From assembly GCA_016188475.1 (NCBI GenBank), contig JACPHT010000008.1, positions 34,489 through 98,488 of the forward strand: a DNA stretch of 64,000 nt. Reading direction: 5' to 3'. Numbering within the stretch: position 1 is the first letter of the stretch; every line of letters begins with the position of its first letter. The position numbers and the translations under genes were made by a program. Positions 1,280-59,740 of this stretch are shown here, in pieces. The stretch is from Candidatus Uhrbacteria bacterium. GTDB lineage: Bacteria; Patescibacteriota; Patescibacteriia; UBA9934; GWF2-40-263. A model generated the notes under the pieces. The model saw only the letters and a list, made by a program, of their open reading frames with translations, was not told the DNA's origin and did not search any database.

Positions 1280-1337
1280 GTTTCTGCCTTTCTAAACAGA
1301 TTTGAATGAACATCTCCTCACATCAAAATATTACACA

Positions 1338-1419
1338 TTGTCATTGCGAGCGACCAACGAGAGCGAAGCAATCTCTTCAAAAAAGAGATCTCTTCGTCGT
1401 CCGACTCCTCGCAATGACA
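1338..1419. repeat. Hairpin element with 12-bp inverted arms ttgtcattgcgag / ctcgcaatgaca and an internal gagatctct palindrome. A related copy lies at 25226-25294.
   Basis: Seen directly. The second copy has arms ttgtcatctcga / tcgagatgacaa and an internal gagagatctctc. Confidence 0.6.
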
Positions 1420-1581
1420 CAAGTAAAACCCTGGTGTAAAAAGCGGTGCCGACTCATAACGAATAGGCACCGCAGTAAAGATCAGCGCAATGGAAGGCGG
1501 CCACGATTACGGTCTCTGACGTAATCGTGGTTGACCCCGGAGCCAAGGGATCCGGGGTCAAAAGCGCGGGAGTATCCCACG

Positions 1582-2002
1582 CTCCCAACTCTCAAGTGCG
1601 TGTTGCACGCGCTCTTGACGAGTCAAGAACCATGGAAGGACGCACGGCTTTGAGGACAGGTCTTGCGAAGCGTCCGCAAAGTCGGCGCGCTGGGACGTAC
1701 ACGAAGTGGCCGTCCCAGTGCGAGTCCGAATGTGCGTCTGTCTTCAAACTCTCAAGCGCGTGTAACACGCGCTCTGATTAGAGTTTGTCTCCTACTCTTT
1801 CGAGTAGGATTAGGTTCAAGTTCAGCACAGAAACAGCACAATGGATAGCGGCCGAGTGACGCTGGACGCGAGTCCTCGAGTGGACAGTGTCACACGGTTG
1901 GACAATGGCGCCATAGCGAAGCGGTGCGCCAGCAGTCCAAAGCGAGAGAAAATCCCTCGTTCCAAACTCTCAAACGCGTGTTGCACGCGTTCTTGACGAG
2001 TC
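1582..2002. repeat. Three direct copies of a 43-bp unit, each itself an imperfect palindrome, at 1582-1624, 1742-1784 and 1960-2002.
   Basis: Unit: caaactctcaa-gcgcgtgt(t/a)(g/a)cacgcg-(c/t)tcttgac/tgagtc. Copies 1 and 3 differ at 2-3 positions. Spacers are ~117 and ~175 bp. Confidence 0.85.
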
Positions 2003-2010
2003 TTGATTGA

Positions 2011-15490: not shown

Positions 15491-15653
15491 GCGCTGGTAG
15501 CTCAGCGGTAGAGCAAGAGCCTTTTAAGCTCGTGGCCGTGGGTTCGATGCGCGAGCGAGCGAGGGGAGAGACCAAGCCAAATGCTTGGACTATCCCGAGC
15601 GAACGAACGCAATATGGCCGAGCCGTTTTAGGCGAGAGCCATATCCCCACCCA
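15491..15653 (+). pseudogene. Disrupted tRNA-Lys copy. Positions 1-58 (15491-15548) are followed by a ~95-bp GC-rich insertion, then an 11-nt T-arm/acceptor fragment atccccaccca (15643-15653). The 3' acceptor strand is missing.
   Basis: Positions 1-58 are identical to the intact tRNA-Lys 137 bp downstream. Seen directly. Confidence 0.6.
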
Positions 15654-15684
15654 TGTTGGGGATCGTCAGTACAACTTAACTTAT

Positions 15685-15759
15685 GCGCTGGTAGCTCAGC
15701 GGTAGAGCAAGAGCCTTTTAAGCTCGTGGCCGTGGGTTCGATCCCCACCCAGCGCACCA
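15685..15759 (+). tRNA. tRNA-Lys (anticodon TTT)
   Basis: Acceptor gcgctgg/ccagcgc perfect. Anticodon loop cttttaa. T-loop ttcgatc. CCA encoded. Followed by a terminator hairpin aaaacactcaa-cttg-tttgagtgtttt. Confidence 0.85.
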
Positions 15760-24961: not shown

Positions 24962-25091
24962 AAAAGTATTAATTAGATATTTAGAATTATTGATATTATT
25001 TTATCATTTTTGAAAATAAACAGCGAAACATTATCCACAACATCTGGATTTGTGATATTCTAAATTCTGTTGAGACCTATGCAAAACTCCC

Positions 25092-25171
25092 AATTATTGC
25101 CTGAGCCTGTCGAAGGCAGTAGATCAATTAGCCAAATTTTACCCATTCGACAAGCTCAGGGAATAAAATTT
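25092..25171. repeat. Complete palindromic copy of the ATTGCCTGAGC...GTCGAAGGC family
   Basis: Arms cctgagcctgtcgaagg / cattcgacaagctcagg. Confidence 0.75.
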
Positions 25172-25225
25172 GGCATTTAATTCGAGTTTTGCAGATGTCT
25201 CTGTTCAAACATTTCCGACCTTTTA

Positions 25226-25294
25226 TTGTCATCTCGAGCGAAGTCGAGAGATCTCTCCACTCCCCCGCATATTTGGGAAAAGGTTCTGGGTCGG
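25226..25294. repeat. TGTCAT-arm hairpin, related to 1338-1419
   Basis: Arms ttgtcatctcga / tcgagatgacaa. Internal perfect palindrome gagagatctctc. Confidence 0.6.
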
Positions 25295-25337
25295 TCGAGA
25301 TGACAAATCTTAACTTCTAACTTCTTGCTTCTACTCT

Positions 25338-26300
25338 ATGATGTCTGACGCAATCAAAAATTTTCCAAAACAATTTTCTTACAAACCGGTTATCGAGCTG
25401 ACAAAACGGCTTAAAAAATTTAGTCACTACTATGTGATCGGTATGGGTGGATCTCATCTTGCGGCTGATCTTGCTTTGATTTGGAATCCAAAACTTCCAC
25501 TGACTATTGTTTCAGATTATGGACTGCCATCGCGAGTTACAAAAAAAGATTTGGTTATCGCGAGCTCTTATTCTGGAAATACAGAAGAAATAATTGACGG
25601 TCTCAAAATTGCGTTAAAGAAAAAAATACCGGTTGTTGTGATCGCTATTGGTGGAAAACTCATCGCACTCTCAAAAAAACACAATCTCCCATATATCCAA
25701 CTTCCAAACACAGGGATCCAACCACGTTGTGCTCTTGGATTTAGTTTGCGCGCGCTCTTGAAAATAGTTCGAGACGAACGCGGATTGCGAGAAAGTGCAA
25801 AACTTACAAAAACACTTGTCGCAACCAAATACGAAAAAGCCGGCCAAACACTCGCATCAAAACTTACTGGAAAAGTTCCTGTCATATATTCATCACAAAA
25901 CAACCTCGCGATCGCGTATAATTGGAAAATCAAACTCAACGAAACTGGAAAAATTCCTGCTTTTTATAATGTACTGCCGGAACTCAACCACAATGAAATG
26001 AATGGATTTGATGTTCAACCAACAACCAAACAACTTTGCGATAAATTTCATTTTATATTTTTGAAAGATAAAAAAGATCATGCGCGCGTGCAAAAACGCA
26101 TGTCTATTCTTGAACAACTCTATCGACAGCGCGGTTTACCAGTAGAAATCGTTGAACTCCGAGGCAAAACAGCTTTTGAAAAAATGTTCTCTTCGCTTGT
26201 TTTGGCTGATTGGACAGCGGTTTATCTAGCAAAACACTATGGTTTGGAATCTGAACAAGTGCCAATGGTGGAAAAATTCAAGAAATTGATGAATTCATAA
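25338..26300 (+). CDS. Bifunctional phosphoglucose/phosphomannose isomerase (SIS domain, archaeal-type)
   Basis: VIGMGGSHLAADL. SIS fold. Size 320 aa. Confidence 0.65.
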   Translation: MMSDAIKNFPKQFSYKPVIELTKRLKKFSHYYVIGMGGSHLAADLALIWNPKLPLTIVSDYGLPSRVTKKDLVIASSYSGNTEEIIDGLKIALKKKIPVVVIAIGGKLIALSKKHNLPYIQLPNTGIQPRCALGFSLRALLKIVRDERGLRESAKLTKTLVATKYEKAGQTLASKLTGKVPVIYSSQNNLAIAYNWKIKLNETGKIPAFYNVLPELNHNEMNGFDVQPTTKQLCDKFHFIFLKDKKDHARVQKRMSILEQLYRQRGLPVEIVELRGKTAFEKMFSSLVLADWTAVYLAKHYGLESEQVPMVEKFKKLMNS

Positions 26301-26305
26301 AGGGG

Positions 26306-26334
26306 TTGACAAAAAAATCACCTATTGGTAATTT
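26306..26334 (+). promoter_or_regulatory. Sigma70-type promoter TTGACA-N17-TAATTT for the 26419 gene
   Basis: Consensus -35 hexamer with exact 17-nt spacing to the -10 box. SD aaaggaagg before ATG 26419. Confidence 0.55.
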
Positions 26335-26418
26335 CGGGTCGCAAGTCCGGAAATGCCGGACAAGTTTCTCAATTCCAGATCCCCATAGCGAGAGCGAGAG
26401 GGGGAAAGGAAGGTTCAC

Positions 26419-27300
26419 ATGGCTCTGGTGAAGGAAGCGGAGGTCAAGAAAATCTTGACCGCATACAACGGTTCTGTGGACGAAGGATCGCAACTCAACG
26501 TCGACGAGGTCTGTGCGAAGTTGGCCAAGGCAGGCGGAGGTCTCTCGGCGGCGGCTAAGGAGATGTCCTACGAGGATATCGAAGGTGCCGGGATTCCGAA
26601 GGCGGTTGCGCGCGCGATCAGCAAGGTCTGGCGCGGCGACGGCGAGAAGCCGGCAAAGCTCGGGCCGGAAGTCCAGATCGGCGGAGTCGAAGGAACGTTC
26701 GAGGCCCTGGCATTCGCCATGGGCAACATAGGTGCTTTCGGCGACAAGCCGCTCCTCAAGGTCTACGAACCTCTCGGTCGCGACGACGTCACTGGCGAGC
26801 TTCGCAAGCGCTCAGGTGACAAACCGTTCATCGCGTTCAGTGACAAGCAGACGCTGACGGTCGATGTGGAAGCATCGTATGGGAACCTCCAGCTACTCAA
26901 GCAGGGCGTCGAAATCGGCACAAACACAGTGATCAACGGGAAGCTGACAGAGCTCTTCAGGGCTGGAGAGCTTCCTGATCTCGCACTTCCGATCTGCCCG
27001 GTTCACGGGTGCCATCTCATCGGGGATGGTGAGTTCTGCAAGGAATGCAACTTCAGTTGGTCCGGAGTTTCGACCGAGGTTCGCGAGCTTGCGTGGTGTC
27101 ACGTCCAGAACGTGCTCGCGGAAGTTCCTGGCTCGCAGGACGCGAGACTCAAGCAGATCCTCGCCGCTCTCAGCGACGCAAAGGACCAGTACTGGTCCTC
27201 GGCAACGCTCGAGCTCGAGAAACTCAAGGCAACTGGCCAGCCCATCGTGCTGGTCAAGCCGGTCAAGCGTCCCGGACGCTCGACTCCGTCCCGCCGCTAG
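26419..27300 (+). CDS. Hypothetical protein with HhH-like motif (DIEGAGIPKAVARAIS) and C4 zinc ribbon (CPVHGC...CKEC)
   Basis: Motifs seen by eye. GC-rich. First gene of the island. Confidence 0.5.
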   Translation: MALVKEAEVKKILTAYNGSVDEGSQLNVDEVCAKLAKAGGGLSAAAKEMSYEDIEGAGIPKAVARAISKVWRGDGEKPAKLGPEVQIGGVEGTFEALAFAMGNIGAFGDKPLLKVYEPLGRDDVTGELRKRSGDKPFIAFSDKQTLTVDVEASYGNLQLLKQGVEIGTNTVINGKLTELFRAGELPDLALPICPVHGCHLIGDGEFCKECNFSWSGVSTEVRELAWCHVQNVLAEVPGSQDARLKQILAALSDAKDQYWSSATLELEKLKATGQPIVLVKPVKRPGRSTPSRR

Positions 27301-27320
27301 TACGGCAAACTTCTTCACTT

Positions 27321-27350
27321 CCGTGATCCATCTGGGTCACGGATTTTTTG
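27321..27350 (+). terminator. Intrinsic terminator ccgtgatcc-atctgg-gtcacgg + T6
   Basis: Stem plus T-run directly after the 26419 gene stop. Confidence 0.6.
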
Positions 27351-27362
27351 TACACAAAACTC

Positions 27363-27391
27363 TTGACACATTTACGAAAATCACGTAAAAA
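27363..27391 (+). promoter_or_regulatory. Sigma70-type promoter TTGACA-N17-TAAAAA
   Basis: Same architecture as the promoters at 26306, 31006 and 33998. Confidence 0.55.
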
Positions 27392-27452
27392 ACCTTGTCC
27401 TGCGCCTTCTAATCCTGAAGGATGCTGGAAGTACAATAAAAGTGAGGAAAAC

Positions 27453-28619
27453 ATGTCTCTCTCAAGCCTTAAGTCAGAGATCATCTTCCCCTACTTTCAA
27501 TCAGTTGGGGACCTAGATCCAAATTCCGCGACCGATCGTGTTGCGACGGAAATTCTCAAATCCGGGGCCGGTGTCAAAGCAGTTGCCGCGTCAATCCAAG
27601 CTGAAGACCTTATTGGAACAGAGCTTCCGCTTGCAATCAGAAAAGCGCTAGCAATTCGCATCAGAGAAGACGCAATCGCGACAGTCGAAGTTACAACAGG
27701 CGACACGCGAAAGAATCTTCGTCCGGGATCGTTCGATGATGTGATCGGCCACGCAGACTTCAAACGTCTCATGTCAAACGCGATCACTGCCGCGCGCAAG
27801 CAAGGCGTTCCTCTTCGCCATATTCTCTTGAACGGTCCGCGCGGACTTGGCAAAACCACTCTCGCTCTTGTGATCGCAAACGAGCTAAAAGCAAAAGCGC
27901 GTTTGCTCGTTGGATCGCAATTACGAACACCGGTCGACATCACGAACGAGGTTCTGCGATGGGAAAAAGGGTCGGTCGTTTTCATTGACGAGATCCACGG
28001 CATGAGCCGTGCCGCTCAAGAAACGCTTTACAGCGTGATGGAAGACGGCCGCTTGCCAATTACCGAAAAAAGAAAAGGACACCAGACAAAGACGAGCGTT
28101 CCAGCGCCATCAATCACGATCATTGGCGCGACAACAAATCCGTCCAAGTTGCTGGAGCCTTTCCGAAATCGGTTCGGGTCAAAGTATGAACTCGGTTTCT
28201 ACTCGAACGACGAGATGAAAAAGATCGGACAACGATCAGCATCCATTCTCGGTCTGACGATCGAACCATCGGCTGTTCAAAAGCTTGTTGCGCACTGTCG
28301 CGACAATCCACGCACTCTCAACGAGTTCCTGCTCCAACTGAACGATCTGTCCATTGCTCAATCGTTATTGTCCGTCACAGTCGAACACGTTTCAGACCTT
28401 TTGAAACTCAACGGCTATGATGAACAGGGTTTGCGTCCTGAAGAACGTCGCTATGTGGAAGCGCTCAAAACGATCGGTGGAAGTGGCAGTCTCAAAACCA
28501 TAGCCGAGACGCTTGACATGGAAGTTTCAGAAGTCGAAGGAACGATCGAGCGATGGTTGGTGCGTAAAGGAATGATTCGCCGGACTCCAAAAGGCCGGCA
28601 GATCATAGAAAGGAGCTGA
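27453..28619 (+). CDS. RuvB-family AAA+ ATPase paralog with ~50-aa N-terminal extension
   Basis: Collinear with RuvB over its whole length: LRP...IGH...LLNGPRGLGKTTLALVIANEL, FIDEIHGMS, LYSVMEDG, IGATTNPS, PFRNRFG, C-terminal winged helix RTPKGRQI. SD gagga before ATG 27453. Confidence 0.7.
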   Translation: MSLSSLKSEIIFPYFQSVGDLDPNSATDRVATEILKSGAGVKAVAASIQAEDLIGTELPLAIRKALAIRIREDAIATVEVTTGDTRKNLRPGSFDDVIGHADFKRLMSNAITAARKQGVPLRHILLNGPRGLGKTTLALVIANELKAKARLLVGSQLRTPVDITNEVLRWEKGSVVFIDEIHGMSRAAQETLYSVMEDGRLPITEKRKGHQTKTSVPAPSITIIGATTNPSKLLEPFRNRFGSKYELGFYSNDEMKKIGQRSASILGLTIEPSAVQKLVAHCRDNPRTLNEFLLQLNDLSIAQSLLSVTVEHVSDLLKLNGYDEQGLRPEERRYVEALKTIGGSGSLKTIAETLDMEVSEVEGTIERWLVRKGMIRRTPKGRQIIERS

Positions 28620-28622
28620 GAA

Positions 28623-29765
28623 ATGGACTTTCCTGTTATTGTTCTAAAAACTGGAAAAGAGTCAATCCCGGACGGCCCTGCCGTAATCATAATCGCGAAA
28701 AACGGCAAGTTTCTCTTGAAGCGACTTGGAATAGTCGAGGCCGCGGTTCCGTACACAGACCAGATTTCAGGACTTGCCGAATACGAGACTTGGGCAGAGC
28801 TCAATGTTGAGAAAATTCCGTTCGAGATCTTCATCCAGGTCTTTCACTTCATGCGAACGATCTACAACAACAAGAAGACGGAATGCAATGTGATTCTGTT
28901 CTATCATCAAAAGGAAAAACAGTGGGCTGTTGTGGTTCCACCACAGATTGTCTCGCACAGCAGTGTGCACTATCAGGATGGTATCGCGGGAGCGAAAGAC
29001 GGATGGATCAAAGTTGGAACACTCCACAGTCACTGCGACTTTTCAGCAGGACATAGCGGTGGCGATCACAGAGACGAAGAGCACTTCGACGGAATCCACA
29101 TCACGCTCGGTCACGTTGACAAAGACGAACCCACATTGAGTGTAAGTCTTGTCGTCAACGGCATGCGGTTCATGAAAACTCCGCAAGAATACATTGCTGG
29201 AGTCAAACGTGTTGAAGAAAAAGAAATGGTCCAGGAATACGAAACAAAGTGGGTTGATGGCGATGATACCGCTGACGAAAGTCACGCAGAGCAAGAAGAG
29301 TCTTTGGTGACTAGCATGTGCACATTAGTGACTAGATTTCTACCGAAGTTCGGTGGTGGGGAGATCGGCGGTACTAGTAACACATATGTCAAACCCAGTT
29401 GGCCTACCAAGGTCTACAAGTACAGACCCCAAAAGCGAATCGAAGTTCCAACCAAAATGGTGGAACGCACAGTCTCCAGACTTGTGTTCGACTTTCCTGA
29501 AGGAAAAAAGGTGGAGGATTATGAATTTCCGCAGGAATGGTTGGACAATGTGAAGACATCGTACGAGTTGCACAAGATGGAACATCCTGTTCGTCCAAGA
29601 CGGAGAAGAAAATTCCGTGATGCGGGCGTTTCAAAAAGTAACGACCATCAACAAGAGTCAATAAACAATGAGGAAGAAGAAACAGCTTACACATGTATGA
29701 CCGACGATGAACTTGCGGAGATAATCTCAAGGCATCAACGTGGATGCCAAGAAGGAGAAGAATGA
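28623..29765 (+). CDS. JAB/MPN (JAMM) metallopeptidase-domain protein
   Basis: Exact JAMM motif HSHCDFSAGHSGGD (HxHx7Sx2D) at 29025-29066, with an upstream Glu. SD ggag before the ATG. Only a 3-nt gap after the RuvB-like stop. Confidence 0.7.
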   Translation: MDFPVIVLKTGKESIPDGPAVIIIAKNGKFLLKRLGIVEAAVPYTDQISGLAEYETWAELNVEKIPFEIFIQVFHFMRTIYNNKKTECNVILFYHQKEKQWAVVVPPQIVSHSSVHYQDGIAGAKDGWIKVGTLHSHCDFSAGHSGGDHRDEEHFDGIHITLGHVDKDEPTLSVSLVVNGMRFMKTPQEYIAGVKRVEEKEMVQEYETKWVDGDDTADESHAEQEESLVTSMCTLVTRFLPKFGGGEIGGTSNTYVKPSWPTKVYKYRPQKRIEVPTKMVERTVSRLVFDFPEGKKVEDYEFPQEWLDNVKTSYELHKMEHPVRPRRRRKFRDAGVSKSNDHQQESINNEEEETAYTCMTDDELAEIISRHQRGCQEGEE

Positions 29766-29766
29766 G

Positions 29767-30534
29767 ATGAAGGAACTGAACATCGTGGTAGTCGGAATAG
29801 GAGGTGTTGGAAGCGCTCTTGTTCCAAAGCTCTGTCGCTATTGTCAGCACATCAAGCCCCAGGTTCCTGTCAGTCTGGTTCTGATCGACGGAGACTTGTA
29901 CGAACAGAACAACGCGAATCGACAGTCGTTTCATCGGTTCGGAAACAAAGCAGAGGTTACGGTTGAAGCTCTCGCGCCTCAATTCGACCGAATTCAACTC
30001 TCGGCAATAGCCGAGTTCCTCAAACCCGACAACATTGACTTCATCATCGCTGAAGGCTCGATCGTTTTCCTGTGCGTTGACAACAACACATCAAGAAAGA
30101 TGGTCGATGATTTCACACACAAGTTCAAGAACATTGTCGTCATCTGCGGCGGAAACGACATGACTGACGGAAACGTACAGATCTACATCCGTCGCAAAGG
30201 CAAGGACATAACAGCATCACTCGCTGACATTCATCCAGAAATCGCTTCGCCACAAGGCAAGGCTCCGTATCAAATGAACTGCGAAGAGCTAGCGATGGCA
30301 TCATCTCCACAGCTTTTCTTCGCCAACGATTTGGTCAGCGCTCTGATGTGTCTGGTCTTCTACCAGATAATCGAAGTCAAGGACTTTCTTGACAAACCTA
30401 GGTTCGGTGAGCTTTACTTTGACATGCTACTAGGTCGCGTTGAATCTGTTGTTCGAAATCCTGTTGTCAAAGTGGCACAGGTTGATCGAAAAAAGTGTAA
30501 GGGCAAGTCCAAGCCAGCAAAGAAAGGAAGGTAG
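29767..30534 (+). CDS. E1-like ubiquitin-activating enzyme of the minimal ThiF/MoeB type. The track's alternative GTG start is 29740.
   Basis: Rossmann VVVGIGGVGS. DGDLYEQNNANRQ (DxDxxExxNxNRQ) at 29887-29925. CVDNNTSR. Catalytic-Cys loop NCEELAMASSPQ. SD ggagaag. Start is 1 nt after the JAB stop. Confidence 0.7.
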   Translation: MKELNIVVVGIGGVGSALVPKLCRYCQHIKPQVPVSLVLIDGDLYEQNNANRQSFHRFGNKAEVTVEALAPQFDRIQLSAIAEFLKPDNIDFIIAEGSIVFLCVDNNTSRKMVDDFTHKFKNIVVICGGNDMTDGNVQIYIRRKGKDITASLADIHPEIASPQGKAPYQMNCEELAMASSPQLFFANDLVSALMCLVFYQIIEVKDFLDKPRFGELYFDMLLGRVESVVRNPVVKVAQVDRKKCKGKSKPAKKGR

Positions 30535-30536
30535 TG

Positions 30537-30953
30537 ATGGCAAGGAGATACTCGGAGCAGGAACTTCTCGGCAAGACCAAGTTGAGTCTGCGAGAGGTCT
30601 GCAATGAAATCGGGCTCGAGTTCAACAATAGCATGAGCATCGACGAACTGGTCAAGGCAATCATGAAGCGTCAAGGTGGTGCGCAGAACGCAGCGCCTGC
30701 AGAAGACGACGGAGACACAACGGACAACGAAAACGAAGGCGGTTCTGTAACTGTGACCTGTGGCGCTTCGAGCCAGGTCCTGGAAGTCGCTGGCAAGTCT
30801 ATCGCGTACGTTCGCAGGGAATACGCGTCCGTTTTCAACATCGGTCGCGAAAGCAAGGCAATGCTCAACGGAGCCGAGGAGAACGACGAAAGTCACATTC
30901 TCGAAGACGGGGACAACCTCGAGTTCGTCAAGAAGAGCGGAGACAAAGCATAA
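30537..30953 (+). CDS. Rho_N-like helix-hairpin domain fused to a ThiS/MoaD-like beta-grasp ubiquitin-like domain, ending ...LEDGDNLEFVKKSG-DKA
   Basis: N-terminus SEQELLGKTKLSLREVCNEIGLEF...SIDELVKAIMKRQ, a Rho_N pattern. C-terminus has the beta-grasp DGD...EFV...SG pattern with a 3-residue tail. Its ATG sits 2 nt after the E1 stop TAG (the alternative GTG start at 30534 overlaps it). Confidence 0.55.
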   Translation: MARRYSEQELLGKTKLSLREVCNEIGLEFNNSMSIDELVKAIMKRQGGAQNAAPAEDDGDTTDNENEGGSVTVTCGASSQVLEVAGKSIAYVRREYASVFNIGRESKAMLNGAEENDESHILEDGDNLEFVKKSGDKA

Positions 30954-30976
30954 ACTAGTCTTCCGCTGGTAACTTA

Positions 30977-31005
30977 CCCACGACAAACTGTCGTGGGATT
31001 TTTTA
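30977..31005 (+). terminator. Intrinsic terminator cccacgaca-aac-tgtcgtggg + T-run
   Basis: 9-bp perfect stem with T-run, seen directly. Confidence 0.7.
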
Positions 31006-31034
31006 TTGACAAAAAATTACTTTTGATGTAAAAA
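31006..31034 (+). promoter_or_regulatory. Sigma70-type promoter TTGACA-N17-TAAAAA
   Basis: Same module as the other island promoters. Confidence 0.55.
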
Positions 31035-31081
31035 ATCTCGTCTGCCAAGAATGGCAGTGCTCATTACAATGAGGTTACAAC

Positions 31082-33790
31082 ATGAGTATTTGGGAAGAAA
31101 CCGCAATCCATCTCACTCCAGACGGCCTTGCCGAACTTCGCACTGACCGTGTGAAATCAACACCAAAAGGAACTCCACTCAGACTTAAAGTGGCACGCCG
31201 AAGTTTTGCGATAACAGACTTGCTCGGCAAACAGAGCGAACAGGAAATCAATCACCGCTTTTGTCGTTTCGTATACACAAAAGGAAATGTTACATGGTAC
31301 GTGGTCGAAGAGCCTCCGTGCATACGAACGGTAACATGGTCATTCTTAAATGAAGATTGGAAAAAAATCCAAGATCGAGGATTGATCCGCAAGTTGGGCC
31401 TGGATCCAAAAACAGATTCAAAGCGAACACGATTTCAATTCGCGTTCCCGTACACGATTTTTCTTCTGCCAATCTCGCCATATGATGGCGGGGTTTCACT
31501 CGGGTTGGGACAGATAGCGCTCCGCGCAGAACCACTACGCAGTCTTCAGGACGACCTATTCTGGGCTCCGTTTTCAAACCAAAGAAGTACAAACGGCGAT
31601 ATGTGTCTTGGAGATAAGAGACCAAGCAAAGCTAAGGCTCCGTGCGAGCTGATTGATCAGCTTATCGCTCACTGGTGGCTAAGCAATTTCAATGATCACT
31701 GGGTCGAGCGATACATAACGTATCAGGAACGAATCCCTGAAATGGCAACGCCATGGGAATGGGAATACTACAGCAAAAGGCGCCCATCATGGGTTCTTGA
31801 AGCTGATTGGATTCGAATGGGAATGACAGTCGAAGAAAAACTCGTCGTTGGCAAAAGTAATAAAACCACTATATTCGCGGATCTTGCGAGAATAGCCAAG
31901 TCTGCTCCAGAAGTGATTCCTGGATCTGACTGGAAAAAAACTAAAAAAGACGAAGCTCGCGCAACAAAAGCGACACTTATGCCTTACGGACAGACAGTTC
32001 AGGTTGGTGACGAGTTTTACTGTACAAACTCTGTGTTAGATTTCCAAGCTGGCAAAACATACAATGTAAATAATATAGAAAACTGCTCATGCGGCGATCC
32101 AGGACACACAGCCTTGTACTTTCAAGGTGGTGGATGTTTGAAGGCCTGTGATGTTCATCATTACTTTCAACGCGCTGACAAATTTCCAACACAACTGTTT
32201 CAGATTGGGTCGCATCAGATCTGGACCGGAACAAAATTCGTCCTCGTGAACAATGATGACATTACTGGAATTCGCACTGGCGCATACATGATCTCGGCGT
32301 TGATGGTAGACCAAGAAGGTGATGTCAAAATCAGAGTCTCTGGACTTTCTGGCTGGATTTACATAACGCACGAACAAACTCTCTTGCCATCTATCAGACT
32401 GTTCATTCCTGAACTCAAGGACAACACGTTTACATACGGCGAGTCCACATTGAAAGTCGGGACAACTGTCAATGTGGTAAACGGCGCAACGAAGATCCAA
32501 AATAAACTGTTACGTGTTGAATCAATAACTCAAGAGGATCAGTCATACTTCGTGACATTCGAAGGACGACAGGAACGATTTTCTCTCTTTTCGAGCGGAA
32601 CCCTTCAGATGAATTGGGAGACGACCGTTTACGAATTCTCTGAACAGCGCGTCGGATTCGGAAAAAAAATTCTTGATTTGACCACTCACACACATATTCT
32701 TGTAAGAGTGGCTGAACAACCGCTTCGCAACGGGACAATATACGAAGCACTTCACTTCGTTCATCCTGAAGGCAAGCACCCACTTGACGTTGACCTTTTA
32801 ATCGCAAACGGAAACGAAACAATTCCGGTTGTTCGCGATTCAAAATGGGTCTTCCCTGAAGCATACACTCCTGTCACGGTCATCTACCAAGATGACGCGT
32901 TGACACTTAAGTCAGGCGAAGTCTTGGTTTGCCAAATAACCGATGTTCCAGGAATCAAAAAAAACGAAGAGGTGACCATACTGTGCTTTATGGAGTCATC
33001 AATTGAAAATCGAAGGCTGATCATAGTCCTGACTGATGGACGAACGATTTGCCTTACGCAAGATACATTGAAGTACTTTGTCCGTAAGGCAAAACCAACA
33101 TGGACCGTGGAAGAGGTAAGACGACTTCCTGAAATATGGTTTAACACAAGCAAAGCGTTTGAGAAACCTCAATCGCTTAACACACTTCCAAAACCGCTCG
33201 TCAGAGCAATCTTGAAGAGAAAAAGCCTAAAGGGCTTTGGTCAGTTTGTTTCTAAGGACTTCAACGGCAACGCTCTTCATATCGGAGACATTGTGTGTAT
33301 TCGCTATATTGCGTTTTTCCAAGGAAACGGTGGTATAGAATCGCAGTACAGTAATAAGTACGCGCTGGTTGTTCATTCATATCTGAATCCAGCACAAAGA
33401 TACTATTACTCATACCTCTTCCTTGGAGTTCAAACTGCTGAAGGAAGAGTTAACATCAGAAGCGACTCTGCTGAATTTGAGAAAGTGGATCCTGAATACC
33501 AAGGTCAAGAAGCCAGAAGACAAATGGCTATCAACATAAACGATTATCTTCAAGTGTGCACCTTCGATGATAGTTTCACTACTATGATCGAAGAAGGGTC
33601 GCTTGTCAGGATTCGTCATGATGTAAATCCAAAGTACGGCCGCGGAAACGTGCAAGCAAACGAAGTCGGAAGAGTTCGTCGACTTATTGAAAACGAGGAG
33701 GTCGTTGTTGACTTCCCCGCAGAAACTGAATGGATCGGACTGATCAACGAGATTGAAATCTGTCCATTTGAGCCTAGCCAACATGTTTAG
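31082..33790 (+). CDS. Large hypothetical protein A (902 aa), paralog of 34082-36682
   Basis: Many conserved blocks with paralog B (PPCIRTV..W, TRFxxAFPYTIF, WEWE, LLPSI..IP.LKDNTFT.G, TILCF). No known motif recognised. Confidence 0.6.
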   Translation: MSIWEETAIHLTPDGLAELRTDRVKSTPKGTPLRLKVARRSFAITDLLGKQSEQEINHRFCRFVYTKGNVTWYVVEEPPCIRTVTWSFLNEDWKKIQDRGLIRKLGLDPKTDSKRTRFQFAFPYTIFLLPISPYDGGVSLGLGQIALRAEPLRSLQDDLFWAPFSNQRSTNGDMCLGDKRPSKAKAPCELIDQLIAHWWLSNFNDHWVERYITYQERIPEMATPWEWEYYSKRRPSWVLEADWIRMGMTVEEKLVVGKSNKTTIFADLARIAKSAPEVIPGSDWKKTKKDEARATKATLMPYGQTVQVGDEFYCTNSVLDFQAGKTYNVNNIENCSCGDPGHTALYFQGGGCLKACDVHHYFQRADKFPTQLFQIGSHQIWTGTKFVLVNNDDITGIRTGAYMISALMVDQEGDVKIRVSGLSGWIYITHEQTLLPSIRLFIPELKDNTFTYGESTLKVGTTVNVVNGATKIQNKLLRVESITQEDQSYFVTFEGRQERFSLFSSGTLQMNWETTVYEFSEQRVGFGKKILDLTTHTHILVRVAEQPLRNGTIYEALHFVHPEGKHPLDVDLLIANGNETIPVVRDSKWVFPEAYTPVTVIYQDDALTLKSGEVLVCQITDVPGIKKNEEVTILCFMESSIENRRLIIVLTDGRTICLTQDTLKYFVRKAKPTWTVEEVRRLPEIWFNTSKAFEKPQSLNTLPKPLVRAILKRKSLKGFGQFVSKDFNGNALHIGDIVCIRYIAFFQGNGGIESQYSNKYALVVHSYLNPAQRYYYSYLFLGVQTAEGRVNIRSDSAEFEKVDPEYQGQEARRQMAININDYLQVCTFDDSFTTMIEEGSLVRIRHDVNPKYGRGNVQANEVGRVRRLIENEEVVVDFPAETEWIGLINEIEICPFEPSQHV

Positions 33791-33817
33791 CTAAGACCGC
33801 AATGTCAGCCCAAATTC

Positions 33818-33958
33818 ATGATGGGCAAAGCGCAACACGGCGAGCATGGTGTCTTCAAAGAACTTCTCAATGACGGCGTGGTTGTCGTGGACTTTCCAAA
33901 CCATCAAGGGTGGTTTGGAGACATAAACGACATCCAACCAGCCGGTACAACGAAATAG
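33818..33958 (+). CDS. Small ORF (46 aa), MMGKAQHGEHGVFKELLNDGVVVVDFPNHQGWFGDINDIQPAGTTK
   Basis: Resembles the C-terminal block of protein A (GRVRRLIENEEVVVDFPAETEWIGLINEIEI). No clear SD. Confidence 0.3.
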   Translation: MMGKAQHGEHGVFKELLNDGVVVVDFPNHQGWFGDINDIQPAGTTK

Positions 33959-33972
33959 GTCATGTTCTCTGT

Positions 33973-33996
33973 CCTGCCTAAAAGGCAGGATTTTTT
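33973..33996 (+). terminator. Intrinsic terminator cctgcc-taaaa-ggcagg + T-run
   Basis: Seen directly. Confidence 0.65.
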
Positions 33997-33997
33997 C

Positions 33998-34026
33998 TTG
34001 ACAAAAAAACAAAAAAGCGGTAAAAG
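33998..34026 (+). promoter_or_regulatory. Sigma70-type promoter TTGACA-N17-TAAAAG
   Basis: Same module. SD aggaaag before ATG 34082. Confidence 0.55.
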
Positions 34027-34081
34027 AATAGGCCGCATTTTGCGGTCGCCCTTTACAAAAACCTTTCAAAGGAAAGTGAAA

Positions 34082-36682
34082 ATGGCTGGAAAACTTATCG
34101 TCTTGAGTGACAAGGAAACCGCAACGCTCACAGATGACAGTGGAAGTTCAACTGTTCCGCTGTCTGCAATAGCCACAAGCGATTCAAAAGGTACTCTTCT
34201 TCCAACCGATTGTCGGATTCACATTACCAACGGTCTGGCAAGTGTGTTTGTTATCGAACAACAGCCATGCGTTCGTGATGTGAACTGGAACACAAGTAAA
34301 GATGAATGGAAAAATCTCATCTCTCGCGGAGCAAAATCATTCGCGCAAGTGAAAGGAAACGAAACAAAAACACGGTTCCGTCTCGCCTTTCCATACACAA
34401 TTTTCATTGTTCGAATGGAAGGAATATGTGTTACGAGCATACGCGTTTTCTTCCGTAGCCACACGATCTCAACACCGACTGATTATCTTCAGCAAGCAGG
34501 GCTTCTAAAAGACGACACTCTGGTTGTTGAAGATCAAAAACAGATTCTTCATCATGGCATGACACAAGCCAGTACTGTTAACGTGGCTGTTGAATACTTC
34601 TGGCATCAAACACTCGGAACAGGTGAACTGATCGGAACTGTTCATCCAGACGTTCCTGAAGTGTCAAGTGTTTGGGAATGGGAATCGGCTTCGCGCAAGC
34701 ATCAAGACTGGATTCTCAAAGCACAGTGGGAAAAAACCGATCTCAACTTGAAAACCGCATCGCAAGCAATGTTGCAGTTACCTGATGCGAAAGATGGTGA
34801 AGACCAGACTTTCGCCACAGTCGCCGCGCGAATCCGTCATAGTGTGCCAAACAAGAAAACGCGCGACCACGAATTGATCGAGAGTCCATGTGTTTCCATA
34901 ATGCTTGGAACAACTCGTTTACGACAAGGCGATACGATCGTTTCTAGCAAACGCCAGTTCGGATGCAAAAAAGACAAGCAATACCTTGTGCTTGGATTCT
35001 ACGAACGAACAAGCAAAGGCGTTGTGCACGCAAGACTTGATGGAGTTGCCAATCCTGTTCCGATTGGAACTTCCAAAGGCTTGGTTGATTTCAAGCTCTT
35101 ACAACCTGAACGAGAAGTCGTGAGTGAGATAACGTACAATGGAGTCGTGTTCAAAACAGGAACAAAATTCTGTGTCTCATCAGGCGAAGACATAGGTTTG
35201 TTAGCAACAGACATTGAATACATAATAAAGAAACTCGAGGTTGATTCTGAGGGAGATGCCAGAGTCAAGATTGCTGACTTAAATACTTGGTTCTATATCA
35301 CATACGATGGCGGAAAACTTCTGCCGTCAATATATCAAAACATTCCGAGTCTCAAAGACAATACTTTCACTTTCGGCAAGCAGAAAATGAGTGTTGGGAC
35401 GTTTGTGGAAATCACTGGAAGCGCGGCAAAAGTTCAAGACACTCTTCTCCGAGTTGCTTCGATCGCTCAAGAGCGCGAAGCATACATTGCCACGTTTGAA
35501 GGACATGAAGAAAAAATCACCATTTACAAAAATGGTGAGCGTCAAATCGATTGGAACACAGTAACATACGAATTCTCGGACAAGCGAGTTGTGCTTGGCA
35601 ACAAAGTTCTGGATCTGACTGATTGCGAATCTATGCTTATAACAATATCAGAAGATTCTCAAGAAGTCGGAAAAATGCACAAAGTGAAAGGCCTTGTTCA
35701 TCCAACAGATGGACACAGGTTTGATGTGAACCTCGTTGTTGACGATAAGCAGATCCCAGTGATCAAACATTCAAACTGGGTCTTCAGAATCAAGCACGAA
35801 CAAGTATCTGACAGATATGATGATGGAGCTTTGACTCTGCAATCAGGTGAAGTCCTCATATGCGTGGATACAATCACTGGTCTGACCAAGGACGAGGAGC
35901 TGACTATTCTGTGTTTTGGCAAAAACAAAACAACCAAAGATCTCACTGACATCATTTTCTCTGATGGACGAGCGATAAACATGACTCAAGCGTCTCTCAA
36001 GCTATTCTCTCGCAAAGATGGGAAGCCGTGGAGTGAGAAAAAAATTGCAAAACTCCCGCAAGGTTCTCCTCCAACGACTCGAGTGCAACAAGGTGAACGC
36101 TGTAGAGTAACGACTAATAACATCAACGGTGAAATCGGAACTGTAACTGACAAATCGTACGACGATAGGTTTGTAAAATTCGACAATCCTCAACCAAACG
36201 GTCGTGGACCGACAATTACAGAAGGCTGGTTTCTGTATAAATACCTTGAACGTCTTGATAAGTCCAAAGTCACATGGTGTTTCTCCAAAAATGCTAGAGT
36301 TGAAAAACGAAGCGATGGGACTTTAATCCAACTTCCAACAGAGCTGATAATAGAGCTCACAACCATTCAACGAATACCCACAAAACTGACGGATTTGTTT
36401 GGGAACTCTTTGTCTGTTGGCGACATCGTCGTGCCAATTTATCAAGGATTCACTAAAGAATGTCCTAGACGAGTAATCGGAATTCCGATGCTAGTCGTTC
36501 ACTACAGTTCAAGCGGTTCTCCATTCTTGTTTCTCTGGGCTGGATCTACACACAAACCTGGAGTGTTAAGCCGCGACTGTCGTGATTTCAATACAATAAC
36601 AATAGCCTTCAAAGATCGTCTTAACGAACTCTACGTCAACCCGCCGAAAGATTGTGAAAAAATCACTTTCATCGAAGCCTAA
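34082..36682 (+). CDS. Large hypothetical protein B (~866 aa from ATG 34082). The track start 33962 lies upstream of the promoter and is rejected.
   Basis: Paralog of A. Confidence 0.6.
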   Translation: MAGKLIVLSDKETATLTDDSGSSTVPLSAIATSDSKGTLLPTDCRIHITNGLASVFVIEQQPCVRDVNWNTSKDEWKNLISRGAKSFAQVKGNETKTRFRLAFPYTIFIVRMEGICVTSIRVFFRSHTISTPTDYLQQAGLLKDDTLVVEDQKQILHHGMTQASTVNVAVEYFWHQTLGTGELIGTVHPDVPEVSSVWEWESASRKHQDWILKAQWEKTDLNLKTASQAMLQLPDAKDGEDQTFATVAARIRHSVPNKKTRDHELIESPCVSIMLGTTRLRQGDTIVSSKRQFGCKKDKQYLVLGFYERTSKGVVHARLDGVANPVPIGTSKGLVDFKLLQPEREVVSEITYNGVVFKTGTKFCVSSGEDIGLLATDIEYIIKKLEVDSEGDARVKIADLNTWFYITYDGGKLLPSIYQNIPSLKDNTFTFGKQKMSVGTFVEITGSAAKVQDTLLRVASIAQEREAYIATFEGHEEKITIYKNGERQIDWNTVTYEFSDKRVVLGNKVLDLTDCESMLITISEDSQEVGKMHKVKGLVHPTDGHRFDVNLVVDDKQIPVIKHSNWVFRIKHEQVSDRYDDGALTLQSGEVLICVDTITGLTKDEELTILCFGKNKTTKDLTDIIFSDGRAINMTQASLKLFSRKDGKPWSEKKIAKLPQGSPPTTRVQQGERCRVTTNNINGEIGTVTDKSYDDRFVKFDNPQPNGRGPTITEGWFLYKYLERLDKSKVTWCFSKNARVEKRSDGTLIQLPTELIIELTTIQRIPTKLTDLFGNSLSVGDIVVPIYQGFTKECPRRVIGIPMLVVHYSSSGSPFLFLWAGSTHKPGVLSRDCRDFNTITIAFKDRLNELYVNPPKDCEKITFIEA

Positions 36683-36694
36683 CCATTCTTTCTT

Positions 36695-36730
36695 ATCGCC
36701 GTCGTGCACCAGCACCGGCGATTTTTTATT
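36695..36730 (+). terminator. Intrinsic terminator atcgccg-...-cggcgat + T6
   Basis: Seen directly. End of the island. Confidence 0.65.
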
Positions 36731-36750
36731 TCTAACTATAGAAGGATGTG

Positions 36751-36800
36751 AAGATTATTGCCTGAGCCTGTCGAAGGCTGTAACTCGTCTTCGCTCGAAA
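36751..36800. repeat. Half copy of the ATTGCCTGAGCCTGTCGAAGGC repeat family plus a tcttcgctcgaaatt motif, abutting the island's 3' end
   Basis: Seen directly. Confidence 0.7.
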
Positions 36801-36838
36801 TTACAGAAGTAGAGCAAGTCGAGAGACCTCCTTATCTT

Positions 36839-59662: not shown

Positions 59663-59740
59663 GAACACTTCATAAATACGAAGTGTTTTATTGTTGACAA
59701 ATGGCTAAAGCCAAAGTTTTATGTTACACTAACATTAATT

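What the first reader, a model, noticed from the sequence alone, without database searches (positions are those of the whole stretch)
27453..30953. RuvB-family AAA+ paralog translationally coupled to JAB, E1 and Ubl genes
Four ORFs sit back-to-back, each ATG preceded by a GGAG-type SD. The JAB ATG is 3 nt after the RuvB-like stop, the E1 ATG 1 nt after the JAB stop, and the Ubl ATG 2 nt after the E1 stop. This implies co-translation in fixed stoichiometry.

The first protein is collinear with bacterial RuvB over its whole length: Walker A GPRGLGKTT, FIDEIH, sensor and arginine-finger blocks, and the C-terminal winged helix RTPKGR. It carries an extra ~50-aa N-terminal segment and has no ruvA neighbour. 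A hexameric DNA translocase hard-wired to a Ubl activation/deconjugation module is unusual. It could target conjugation to DNA structures, or the AAA+ ring could act as an unfoldase for conjugates.
Basis: partly seen in the sequence, partly recalled or inferred. Interest (0 to 1): 0.85.

Follow-up and report, generated by a model that had tools for sequence, protein, structure and literature searches.

The report
RuvB-like motor in ubiquitin-like conjugation cassette
A candidate-phylum bacterium carries a rare seven-gene island in which a diverged copy of the DNA motor RuvB shares an operon with a complete ubiquitin-like tagging system (activating enzyme, giant conjugating enzymes, tag, tag-removing protease), and the closest relatives of the tagging genes sit in large phage genomes.

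Summary
Four tightly spaced genes (27453-30953) encode a RuvB-derived AAA+ ATPase, a JAMM/JAB peptidase, a ThiF-type E1 and a two-domain ubiquitin-like protein (Ubl).

- **Distinct paralog.** The RuvB-like protein scores 358-836 bits against its own clade and at most 237 bits against ordinary RuvB. The clade split has 100/100 bootstraps. No ruvA or ruvC lies nearby.
- **Conserved linkage.** The same gene set recurs in every related contig long enough to show it, at different chromosomal sites.
- **A larger system.** The unit has seven genes. An upstream partner protein shares the RuvB-like protein's ~72-aa N-terminal domain. Downstream lie two ~900-aa proteins with Prok-E2_D (UBC-fold) N-terminal domains. 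One keeps the catalytic Cys (C175) and the other lacks it.
- **Relatives.** The named relatives are PRTRC proteins A, B and ThiF, all far below their cut-offs. The closest actual relatives are E2-JAB-E1-Ubl modules in 25 large phage contigs, none of which has the RuvB-like gene.

I read it as a DNA-associated Ubl-conjugation conflict system. The composition is shown; the biological role is inferred. It is a new variant of a known kind.

The parts
26300..26322 (+). Promoter-like box (GGGGTTGACAAAAAAATCACC) ahead of the first cassette gene.
   Evidence: Contains the same TTGACAAAAAA box that recurs, with 1-2 mismatches in some copies, at the other three unit boundaries (repeats D1 and D9). Consensus match only; function not shown.
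26419..27300 (+). Partner protein, 293 aa. It has an N-terminal ~72-aa domain shared with the RuvB-like protein, an invariant CPxHxxH...CxxC metal-binding motif, and a conserved C-terminal tail TGQPIVLVKP.
   Evidence: No Pfam, PHROG, NCBIfam or PDB sequence hit. Present in every cassette locus whose 5' side is not cut by a contig end. HMM cross-hits with the RuvB-like N-terminus at 1e-5 to 1e-8; alignment A5. Not RuvA-like by hhalign.
27320..27361 (+). Terminator-like hairpin plus T-run and a degenerate copy of the promoter-like box, between the partner gene and the four-gene operon.
   Evidence: (repeat D1).
27453..28619 (+). RuvB-derived AAA+ ATPase, 388 aa. An N-terminal ~85-aa extension precedes a complete RuvB core with Walker A/B, sensor 1, Arg finger, sensor 2, lid and a winged helix carrying RTPKGR.
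   Evidence: dN/dS 0.13 against L007, the most constrained gene of the cassette.
28623..29765 (+). JAB/JAMM metallopeptidase, 380 aa. The core is residues ~1-200; the C-terminal half is poorly conserved.
   Evidence: PRTRC_A 3.5e-8, below cut-off. E87, H135, H137, S145 and D148 are conserved in 31 homologs.
29767..30534 (+). Single-domain ThiF-type E1 adenylating enzyme, 255 aa, with a conserved Cys172.
   Evidence: ThiF 64.9 bits against a cut-off of 28.1. PRTRC_ThiF 8e-11, below cut-off. G.GGvGs, cVDNhktr and the Cys in 'emsCeel' are conserved in 32 homologs.
30537..30953 (+). Two-domain ubiquitin-like protein, 138 aa. It has a Rho_N-like helical N-domain, an acidic linker and a beta-grasp domain ending ...LEFVKKSG135-D-K137-A.
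   Evidence: Alignment A2. Rho N-terminal domain in PDB at 0.009. Rho_N in 7 of 18 members, TGS in 12 of 18, ThiS in 7 of 18.
30977..31016 (+). Terminator-like hairpin plus promoter-like box closing the four-gene operon.
   Evidence: (D1).
31082..33790 (+). Giant E2, 902 aa. The N-terminal ~255 aa form a Prok-E2_D/UBC-fold domain with candidate catalytic Cys175. The C-terminal ~600 aa form an array of small beta-barrels.
33971..34008 (+). Terminator-like hairpin plus promoter-like box between the two giant genes.
   Evidence: (D1).
34082..36682 (+). Cys-less paralog of the giant E2, 866 aa from the ATG at 34082. It has the same E2_D-like N-domain without the catalytic Cys, and a beta-barrel array.
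   Evidence: Alignment A1. The Cys column is empty or non-Cys in every ortholog. The start is placed by the SD repeat D2 and by the hairpin that lies inside the longer ORF.

Best explanation
The four genes are the core operon of a seven-gene, horizontally acquired island. The island encodes a complete ubiquitin-like conjugation pathway of the Prok-E2_D/PRTRC-like kind, joined to a RuvB-derived DNA motor.

Shown
- The E1 has the adenylation motifs and a conserved Cys172.
- The small protein is a beta-grasp Ubl with a Rho_N-like helical N-domain.
- The JAB has an intact JAMM site.
- The first giant protein carries a UBC-fold E2 domain with a conserved Cys175. Its paralog lacks that Cys.
- The RuvB-like protein keeps every ATPase motif and the DNA-contacting winged helix of RuvB.
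- The RuvB-like protein shares a private N-terminal domain with the upstream partner protein.

Inferred mechanism
- JAB trims the Ubl tail to expose its C-terminus, either after the invariant G135 or at the terminal G/A. JAB also reverses conjugates.
- E1 adenylates the Ubl and passes it through Cys172 to Cys175 of the giant E2.
- The Cys-less paralog acts as a non-catalytic (UEV-like) partner.
- The fast-evolving beta-barrel arrays choose the target.
- The RuvB-like hexamer, recruited or regulated by the partner protein in place of RuvA, works on double-stranded or branched DNA. Conjugation is therefore coupled to a DNA structure, either as sensor or as effector.

Inferred role
The role is inter-genome conflict (anti-phage or anti-mobile-element). 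The reasons are that the island is rare, patchy and site-variable, and that the conjugation module's nearest relatives are carried by large phages.
For: Conserved unit
- Seven-gene synteny is seen in all loci long enough to show it, with different flanking genes in each.
- In the one rearranged lineage (L055), RuvB-like stays with JAB-E1-Ubl while the partner goes with the two E2 genes.
- Distance matrices of the genes correlate at r 0.87-0.95, with 0 of 2000 permutations reaching the observed value.
- All seven genes are under purifying selection, dN/dS 0.13-0.29.
- Terminator and promoter-like boxes delimit the four-gene operon.

Component identity
- RuvB-like clade separate from ordinary RuvB, with motifs kept.
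- No RuvA or RuvC nearby.
- E2 identity.
- JAB and E1 catalytic residues.
- Ubl domains.

Island character and phage kinship
- Cassette GC is 2-7 points above its flanks in 11 of 12 loci.
- Phage relatives: 25 of 25 IMG/VR contigs carry E2-JAB-E1-Ubl. Their E1 is 43-46% identical to the window protein.
- In the phages the module sits in a block with helicase, SbcCD and RNA polymerase genes.
Against: - No PADLOC defence model matches the JAB, Ubl, E2 or partner proteins.
- The neighbourhoods are ordinary housekeeping genes rather than defence islands, and no integrase or repeat boundary was found.
- No experiment exists for PRTRC or Prok-E2_D systems, so the target and the biological role are guesses.
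- Uhrbacterial Ubl orthologs end in Ala or carry extra residues rather than Gly-Gly, so the mature C-terminus is uncertain.
- Physical interaction between the RuvB-like protein and the conjugation enzymes is not shown.
- Cassette GC tracks host GC, which suggests long residence rather than recent transfer.
Confidence: 0.55

Rival explanations
1. The AAA+ ring is a protein unfoldase or segregase. It would extract or unfold Ubl-tagged proteins, as Mpa does for Pup, Cdc48 for SAMP/ubiquitin, or the proteasomal ATPases. It would not act on DNA.
For: AAA+ ATPases are the usual readers of Ub-like tags in archaea, actinobacteria and eukaryotes (established knowledge). The private N-terminal domain could be a tag- or substrate-binding module.
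Against: The protein is collinear with RuvB over the whole core. This includes the lid, the winged helix with the RTPKGR DNA-contact motif, and the segment aligned with the RuvA-binding hairpin. RuvB rings thread double-stranded DNA. No protease or proteasome gene is in the cassette.
Confidence: 0.12
2. The island is a domesticated or decaying fragment of a phage or plasmid nucleic-acid-metabolism module. The Ubl pathway and the motor would serve replication or recombination of a mobile element, or now of the host chromosome, rather than defence.
For: The closest relatives of the conjugation genes lie in phage blocks with helicase, SbcCD, radical SAM and RNA polymerase genes. More distant ThiF genes, in one case beside a JAB gene, lie in replication and recombination modules of Firmicutes megaplasmids. 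PRTRC itself is defined by association with a ParB homolog (NCBIfam description, from my own knowledge).
Against: No other phage or plasmid genes accompany the cassette in any of about 12 lineages. All seven genes are under purifying selection. The RuvB-like and partner genes are absent from all 25 phage versions.
Confidence: 0.2
3. This is an ordinary housekeeping ruvB that merely abuts an unrelated JAB-E1-Ubl operon.
For: There is strong overall similarity to RuvB models. Whether the same genome has a second ruvB could not be checked.
Against: Scores fall below both RuvB equivalog cut-offs. The clade is separate at 100/100 bootstraps. In 1.84 billion representatives it is a single narrow cluster. 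It is always in the cassette and never beside ruvA or ruvC, whereas 9 of 10 ordinary loci have ruvA. It co-diverges with E1 and JAB.
Confidence: 0.02
4. The E1 and beta-grasp protein form a sulfur-carrier pair (ThiS/MoaD-like) for cofactor or tRNA thiolation, not a protein-conjugation system.
For: The E1 also hits ThiF and MoeB models. The Ubl family hits the ThiS Pfam model weakly.
Against: All ThiF and MoeB scores are far below their cut-offs. An E2 with a conserved Cys and a JAB peptidase are always present. No thiamine, molybdopterin or sulfurtransferase genes are in the cassette. The Ubl lacks a terminal Gly-Gly.
Confidence: 0.03

Closest known systems
PRTRC system (ParB-related, ThiF-related cassette; NCBIfam TIGR03734-TIGR03742)
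   Same: The best named matches are PRTRC_A for the JAB (3.5e-8), PRTRC_ThiF for the E1 (8e-11) and PRTRC_B for the E2 domain (0.014 in one ortholog). The logic is the same: E2-like, JAB, small E1 and small Ubl on mobile DNA, with function unknown.
   Different: All scores are far below the curated cut-offs. There is no ParB homolog and no match to proteins C, D, E or F. Here the E2 is fused to ~600 aa of beta-barrels and duplicated, the Ubl has an extra Rho_N-like domain, and a RuvB-like ATPase and its partner are added.
Pfam Prok-E2_D (PF14460) operons with Prok-JAB, ThiF and a small Ubl, described by comparative genomics (Iyer, Burroughs and Aravind; PMC1779556 covers the earlier operon classes)
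   Same: The profile of the giant proteins' N-domain finds PF14460 proteins at 8e-31. One of these lies in an E2_D-x-x-JAB-ThiF-Ubl operon (L022).
   Different: The stand-alone E2_D proteins are ~220 aa. No AAA+ or RuvB-like gene is mentioned in PMC1779556 or present in L022.
Uncultured large-phage module giant-E2 / JAB / E1 / two-domain Ubl (25 IMG/VR contigs, L023-L047)
   Same: These are the closest real relatives. E1 is 43-46% identical over its full length, JAB 38-40%, and the Ubl 30-32% including the Rho_N-like domain. The E2 Cys is conserved.
   Different: Gene order is E2-JAB-E1-Ubl. In 23 of the 25 there is one giant E2 and no Cys-less paralog. There is no RuvB-like gene and no partner protein within 10 kb. 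The module is embedded between radical SAM/WYL_2 genes and a second ThiF and an RNA polymerase subunit.
Bil (BilABCD), Bub and type II CBASS Cap2/Cap3 bacterial ubiquitination-like defence systems (PMC11601596, PMC10097602)
   Same: All combine E1, E2, a JAB or other peptidase, and (in Bil and Bub) a Ubl on mobile or defence loci. The E2 is proposed to pick targets without an E3.
   Different: PADLOC gives no Bil or Bub hit and only 0.002-level hits to the CBASS E1-E2 model. The E1 here is a 255-aa single domain, not a tandem or fused form. There is no CD-NTase. None of those systems has a RuvB-like ATPase.
RuvAB Holliday-junction branch-migration motor
   Same: Full-length collinearity with RuvB. 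All nucleotide-binding and sensor motifs, the lid and the winged helix are kept.
   Different: It is a separate clade below the equivalog cut-offs. It has an extra N-terminal domain and no RuvA or RuvC. The candidate partner is unrelated to RuvA by sequence.
Eukaryotic Ubc13-Mms2 (E2 plus UEV) with the Rad5/HLTF DNA translocase (analogy only, from my own knowledge)
   Different: There is no evidence of common descent for the arrangement, of heterodimer formation, or of a sliding-clamp-like target here.

Membership tests
Housekeeping RuvB (NCBIfam NF000868 / TIGR00635) | Score at or above the curated equivalog cut-off. | tested here: not met
   247.1 bits against a cut-off of 282, and 217.3 against 299.05.
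Housekeeping RuvB (NCBIfam NF000868 / TIGR00635) | AAA+ motifs, lid and C-terminal winged helix of RuvB. | tested here: met
   RuvB_N, AAA_lid_4 and RuvB_C hits. Motif-by-motif conservation.
Housekeeping RuvB (NCBIfam NF000868 / TIGR00635) | Groups within RuvB orthologs. | tested here: not met
   The clade is split off in 100 of 100 NJ bootstraps. There is a bit-score gap of 358+ against at most 237.
Housekeeping RuvB (NCBIfam NF000868 / TIGR00635) | Works with RuvA, which is usually encoded beside it. | tested here: not met
   tblastn with RuvA and RuvC finds none in the 18 cassette sequences searched, window included. Nine of ten ordinary ruvB loci have ruvA upstream. The partner protein compared with the RuvA profile gives hhalign probability 0.1%.
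Housekeeping RuvB (NCBIfam NF000868 / TIGR00635) | It is the only ruvB of the genome. | not testable with these tools
   Only 64 kb of the 234-kb contig, and 10-kb flanks of the other loci, could be read. No second ruvB lies in the window.
PRTRC system | ParB-related protein (TIGR03734) in the cassette. | tested here: not met
   No ParB or PRTRC ParB hit for any of the seven proteins.
PRTRC system | Proteins A, B, C, D, E, F and ThiF at or above their cut-offs. | tested here: not met
   A scores 33.2 against 101.8. ThiF scores 41.7 against 144.75. B matches one ortholog only, at E 0.014, against a curated cut-off of 131.45 bits. C, D, E and F have no hit.
Prok-E2_D (Pfam PF14460) / UBC-fold E2 | Sequence membership of the N-terminal domain. 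| tested here: inconclusive
   The window protein alone has no Pfam hit. One ortholog hits at 0.0043. The family profile finds PF14460-annotated proteins at 8e-31 and 4e-28.
Prok-E2_D (Pfam PF14460) / UBC-fold E2 | UBC-like fold. | tested here: met
Prok-E2_D (Pfam PF14460) / UBC-fold E2 | Conserved catalytic Cys in the loop before the long helix. | tested here: met
   C175 is conserved in all orthologs of the first giant protein, in all phage giant E2s and in the stand-alone E2_D. It is absent from every ortholog of the second giant protein.
JAB/JAMM metallopeptidase | E...HxHx7Sx2D metal-binding and catalytic motif. | tested here: met
   E87, H135, H137, S145 and D148 are conserved in 31 sequences. 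The Pfam Prok-JAB hit itself is weak, 0.0093.
E1-like adenylating enzyme (ThiF, PF00899) | Pfam score above cut-off, with the nucleotide-binding Gly motif and the Asp/Arg motifs. | tested here: met
   64.9 bits against 28.1. G.GGvGs, RQ.F and cVDNhktr are conserved.
E1-like adenylating enzyme (ThiF, PF00899) | Catalytic Cys for a thioester. | tested here: inconclusive
   Cys172 is conserved in at least 95% of 32 homologs. Its position relative to the crossover loop was not checked structurally.
Ubiquitin-like beta-grasp modifier | Beta-grasp fold. | tested here: inconclusive
   Only weak family-level hits: TGS in 12 of 18 members (best 6.7e-5), ThiS in 7 of 18 (best 0.001), Ub-Mut7C in 4 of 18. 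No structure was predicted.
Ubiquitin-like beta-grasp modifier | C-terminal Gly available for adenylation. | tested here: inconclusive
   G135 is invariant. Phage and stand-alone versions end ...KG or ...KGC. Uhrbacterial ones end ...GDKA or carry longer tails, so processing is probably needed.
Bil / Bub / type II CBASS | Match to the defence-system models and the characteristic E1 architecture or CD-NTase. | tested here: not met
   PADLOC gives no hits for JAB, Ubl or E2 and only 0.002-0.003 hits of the E1 to the CBASS E1-E2 model. The E1 is a 255-aa single domain and no nucleotidyltransferase is present.

The most novel reading that the evidence does not exclude
The cassette would be a bacterial counterpart of ubiquitin-dependent DNA transactions. 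The RuvB-like ring, loaded by the partner protein on branched or foreign DNA, would use the ~72-aa domain they share to dock the Ubl or the E2/UEV-like pair. Conjugation would then fire only at a particular DNA structure, formally like Ubc13-Mms2 with Rad5/HLTF. This would be the first prokaryotic Ubl pathway read out or triggered by a DNA branch-migration motor. The phage-borne relatives would be its source or its countermeasure.
Probability: 0.12. Interest if true: 0.85.

Novelty: new variant of a known kind. Interest (0 to 1): 0.62.

Why it matters
Bacterial ubiquitin-like conjugation systems (type II CBASS, Bil, Bub) have recently been shown to be immune pathways related to eukaryotic ubiquitination. 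The PRTRC/Prok-E2_D branch has no known function.

This cassette adds four features that those systems do not combine:
- a RuvB-derived DNA motor in the same operon as JAB, E1 and Ubl;
- a Ubl carrying a Rho_N-like helical domain;
- a catalytic E2 paired with a Cys-less paralog;
- very close relatives encoded by large phages.

If the motor and the conjugation machinery really act together, this links protein tagging to DNA structure in bacteria. It would also give a compact seven-gene system that can be rebuilt in vitro. The organisms are uncultured, which limits direct genetics.

Tried and rejected
- **HhH or RuvA-like reading of the upstream protein and the shared N-domain.** Pfam gave no HhH hit even at E 10. 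PDB sequence profiles gave only noise. hhalign against a RuvA alignment gave probability 0.1% and 3%. Rejected as unsupported. The 13-column match to RuvA domain III is not significant.
- **PADLOC and PHROG annotation.** Neither was informative for five of the seven proteins.
- **Giant proteins against PDB sequences.** Noise only.
- **Word-indexed searches with the giant protein and with its profile.** They returned only 5 and 4 proteins, so the structure-prediction alignments were shallow.
- **Other collections.** tblastn of a stand-alone E2_D against plasmids found nothing. GenBank phages hold only distant ThiF hits.
- **Island boundaries.** No integrase and no flanking direct repeats were found.
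- **RNA families.** Rfam found nothing across 25000-38000.
- **Source names for the best ordinary RuvB hits.** The look-up returned no organism names.
- **Searches that could not run.** The afdb50 library was unavailable.
- **Literature.** Searches for RuvB together with JAB, ThiF or ubiquitin-like found nothing relevant.

Full report
**1. Observation**

- RuvB-like, 27453..28619, 388 aa
- JAB, 28623..29765, 380 aa
- E1, 29767..30534, 255 aa
- Ubl, 30537..30953, 138 aa

The gaps between them are 3, 1 and 2 nt, and a purine-rich Shine-Dalgarno-like motif precedes each ATG.

Pfam confirms RuvB_N (1.7e-37), the RuvB lid, RuvB_C (2e-13) and ThiF (8e-18). The JAB hit is weak. However, the JAMM motif E87...H135-x-H137-x7-S145-x2-D148 is intact and conserved in 31 homologs.

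The 138-aa protein has no hit on its own. Across 18 family members the C-terminal half matches the beta-grasp models TGS (12 members, best 6.7e-5) and ThiS (7 members). The N-terminal ~45 aa match Rho_N (7 members, best 4e-6; Rho in PDB at 0.009).

Terminator-like hairpins followed by a repeated TTGACAAAAAA box sit at 27320-27361 and 30977-31016. The four genes therefore look like one transcription unit.

**2. The RuvB-like protein is a distinct paralog**

- It falls below both NCBIfam RuvB equivalog cut-offs: 247 bits against 282, and 217 against 299.
- A search of 5.8 billion proteins found 19 full-length relatives at 358-836 bits, all covering the N-terminal extension. Scores then drop sharply to ordinary RuvB, at most 196 bits over about 78% of the query.
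- In an NJ tree the clade separates from ordinary RuvB in 100 of 100 bootstraps.
- An exhaustive phmmer search of 1.84 billion cluster representatives collapses the clade to one representative (408 bits). The next hit (237 bits) is an ordinary RuvB in a ruvC-ruvA-ruvB operon.
- Walker A and B, sensor 1, the Arg-finger block, sensor 2 and the winged-helix T-x-[KR]-G-R motif are all conserved in the clade. The protein most likely still hydrolyses ATP and binds DNA.
- tblastn with RuvA and RuvC finds neither gene in the 64-kb window or near any of the 17 other cassette loci searched. The same search finds RuvA immediately upstream in 9 of 10 ordinary ruvB loci.
- Whether the genome has a second, ordinary ruvB could not be checked.

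**3. Linkage is conserved and the unit has seven genes**

Related loci came from three sources: exact-protein look-ups, a species-representative genome scan, and a metagenome scan seeded with the upstream protein rather than with RuvB.

Every contig long enough shows the same set:
- partner protein (~295 aa)
- RuvB-like
- JAB
- E1
- Ubl
- giant protein 1 (870-1055 aa)
- giant protein 2

This covers about 12 lineages, mostly labelled Candidatus Uhrbacteria. The flanking genes differ between lineages: PGI and CopA here, RNase H and Fic-GreA in L001, PolA and holA in L003. No integrase or boundary repeat was seen.

Cassette GC is 2-7 points above its flanks in 11 of 12 loci (L003's right flank is within 0.5 point), while tracking host GC.

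In one lineage (L055/L010) the cassette is split into divergent operons. RuvB-like stays with JAB-E1-Ubl, and the partner goes with the two giant genes.

Pairwise distances of the five smaller genes correlate at r 0.87-0.95, with 0 of 2000 permutations reaching the observed value. dN/dS against the 89%-identical locus L007 is 0.13-0.29. It is lowest for the RuvB-like gene and highest for the giant genes.

**4. The missing E2s**

The two giant proteins share an N-terminal ~255-aa domain.
- One ortholog hits Pfam Prok-E2_D (0.0043) and one hits NCBIfam PRTRC_B (0.014).
- The domain profile finds 220-aa PF14460 proteins at 8e-31 and 4e-28. One of these lies in an E2_D-x-x-JAB-ThiF-Ubl operon.
- Cys175, in the motif N-x9-C-[LFM]-G, is conserved in every ortholog of the first giant protein and in all phage relatives. 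It is missing from every ortholog of the second.
- The remaining ~600 aa model as a string of small beta-barrels. The best PDB matches are Spt5 KOW arrays, HERC2 and ZGPAT.

**5. The partner protein**

The 26419 protein has no family or PDB sequence match. It shares its first ~72 aa with the N-terminus of the RuvB-like protein. This shows in HMM cross-hits at 1e-5 to 1e-8 and in alignment A5.

It also has an invariant CPxHxxH...CxxC motif and a conserved C-terminal tail, TGQPIVLVKP. Neither 'HhH' nor similarity to RuvA is supported.

**6. Relatives elsewhere**

PRTRC proteins A, B and ThiF are the nearest named models for the JAB, the E2 domain and the E1. All fall far below their cut-offs, and there is no ParB.

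A scan of IMG/VR with the E2-domain alignment returned 25 viral contigs of 24-527 kb. Every one carries E2-JAB-E1-Ubl.
- E1 is 43-46% identical to the window protein.
- JAB is 38-40% identical.
- The two-domain Ubl is 30-32% identical.

Twenty-three of the contigs are syntenic. They place the module between a helicase, SbcCD, a radical SAM enzyme and a WYL_2 protein on one side, and a second ThiF and an RNA-polymerase beta'-like subunit on the other.

None has the RuvB-like gene or the partner gene within 10 kb. More distant ThiF genes in Firmicutes megaplasmids lie in replication and recombination modules; one of the two inspected sits beside a Mov34/JAB gene.

No paper in the searchable library links RuvB with JAB, ThiF or Ubl operons. 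The bacterial ubiquitination families described so far (CBASS type II, Bil, Bub) have different architectures and do not match here.

**7. Interpretation**

Shown: a complete and conserved set of E1, E2, a Cys-less E2 paralog, Ubl and JAB, with catalytic residues intact. It is fused at operon level to a RuvB-derived ATPase, which shares a private domain with a seventh protein.

Inferred:
- JAB matures and recycles the Ubl.
- The Ubl passes from E1 Cys172 to E2 Cys175.
- The Cys-less paralog is a non-catalytic partner.
- The beta-barrel arrays pick targets.
- The RuvB-like ring, with the partner in place of RuvA, ties the reaction to DNA.

The Rho_N-like domain on the Ubl and the DNA-metabolism context of the phage relatives fit a nucleic-acid-associated site of action. 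The role in inter-genome conflict rests only on rarity, patchiness, variable location and phage kinship.

The main rivals are a phage-derived replication or recombination module, and an unfoldase role for the ATPase.

**8. Verdict**

This is not a member of PRTRC, Bil, Bub or CBASS, and the ATPase is not housekeeping RuvB. It is a new variant of the Prok-E2_D/PRTRC-like kind of Ubl conjugation system.

Noticed in passing
window 27320-27361, 30977-31016, 33971-34008 (and 26300-26322): A composite element is repeated at each boundary inside the cassette. It is a GC-rich hairpin, a T-run and the box TTGACAAAAAA (with 1-2 mismatches in some copies). It divides the cassette into four units: partner / RuvB-like-JAB-E1-Ubl / giant 1 / giant 2.
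   Followed up: partly
window 33962-34081: The longest ORF of the second giant gene starts at 33962 and contains the hairpin. The ATG at 34082 has the same Shine-Dalgarno repeat as two other cassette genes and is the likelier start, giving 866 aa.
   Followed up: yes
L023-L047 (IMG/VR contigs), e.g. L026 8154-20508: A family of large uncultured phages encodes a full E2-JAB-E1-Ubl pathway. It sits next to a radical SAM enzyme, a WYL_2/Sm-like protein, a second ThiF-like protein (~286-306 aa) and an RNA polymerase beta'-like subunit, with SbcCD and a helicase upstream. No close relative was found in GenBank phages.
   Followed up: partly
L039 8670-10975 and L047 9734-11760: Two divergent viral contigs carry two tandem, shorter (346-406 aa) E2_D-like genes ahead of JAB-E1-Ubl. 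Their Ubl lacks the Rho_N-like domain. Tandem duplication of the E2 is therefore not unique to the Uhrbacteria cassette.
   Followed up: no
L055 6029-17109 (same lineage as L010): The cassette is rearranged into two divergent operons: RuvB-like-JAB-E1-Ubl on one strand and partner-E2-E2 on the other.
   Followed up: partly
L020 and L021 (Butyrivibrio and Alicyclobacillus megaplasmids): Distant ThiF genes lie inside replication and recombination blocks of non-mobilizable megaplasmids. In L021 the ThiF gene sits directly downstream of a Mov34/JAB gene, with DnaN and an antirepressor gene upstream. In L020 it lies among Rad52, helicase, pol III delta and SSB genes, with no annotated JAB.
   Followed up: no
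window 30537-30953, residues 135-138; alignment A2: The Ubl family ends in an invariant G-x-K followed by G, A, GC or longer tails. An invariant Lys two residues after the invariant Gly is unusual for Ubl tails and is unexplained.
   Followed up: no
L009 and L005/P0012: Cassette-bearing metagenome-assembled genomes are labelled 'Gammaproteobacteria' and 'Dehalococcoidia'. Their cassettes are typical of the Uhrbacteria set, so mis-binning or mislabelling is possible.
   Followed up: no
proteins P0139, P0140, P0087, P0156, P0160: Many RuvB-core proteins in public data carry long N-terminal extensions (650-1065 aa in total). One has a PF14550 domain. These are other RuvB fusions unrelated to this clade.
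   Followed up: no
window 1-3000, 15492-15759 and 59587-60656: The first 3 kb of the window are GC 0.50, against about 0.40 elsewhere. Two tRNA-Lys(ttt) genes lie 120 nt apart at 15492-15759. Three further tRNA genes (Thr, Tyr, Thr) cluster at 59587-60656.
   Followed up: no
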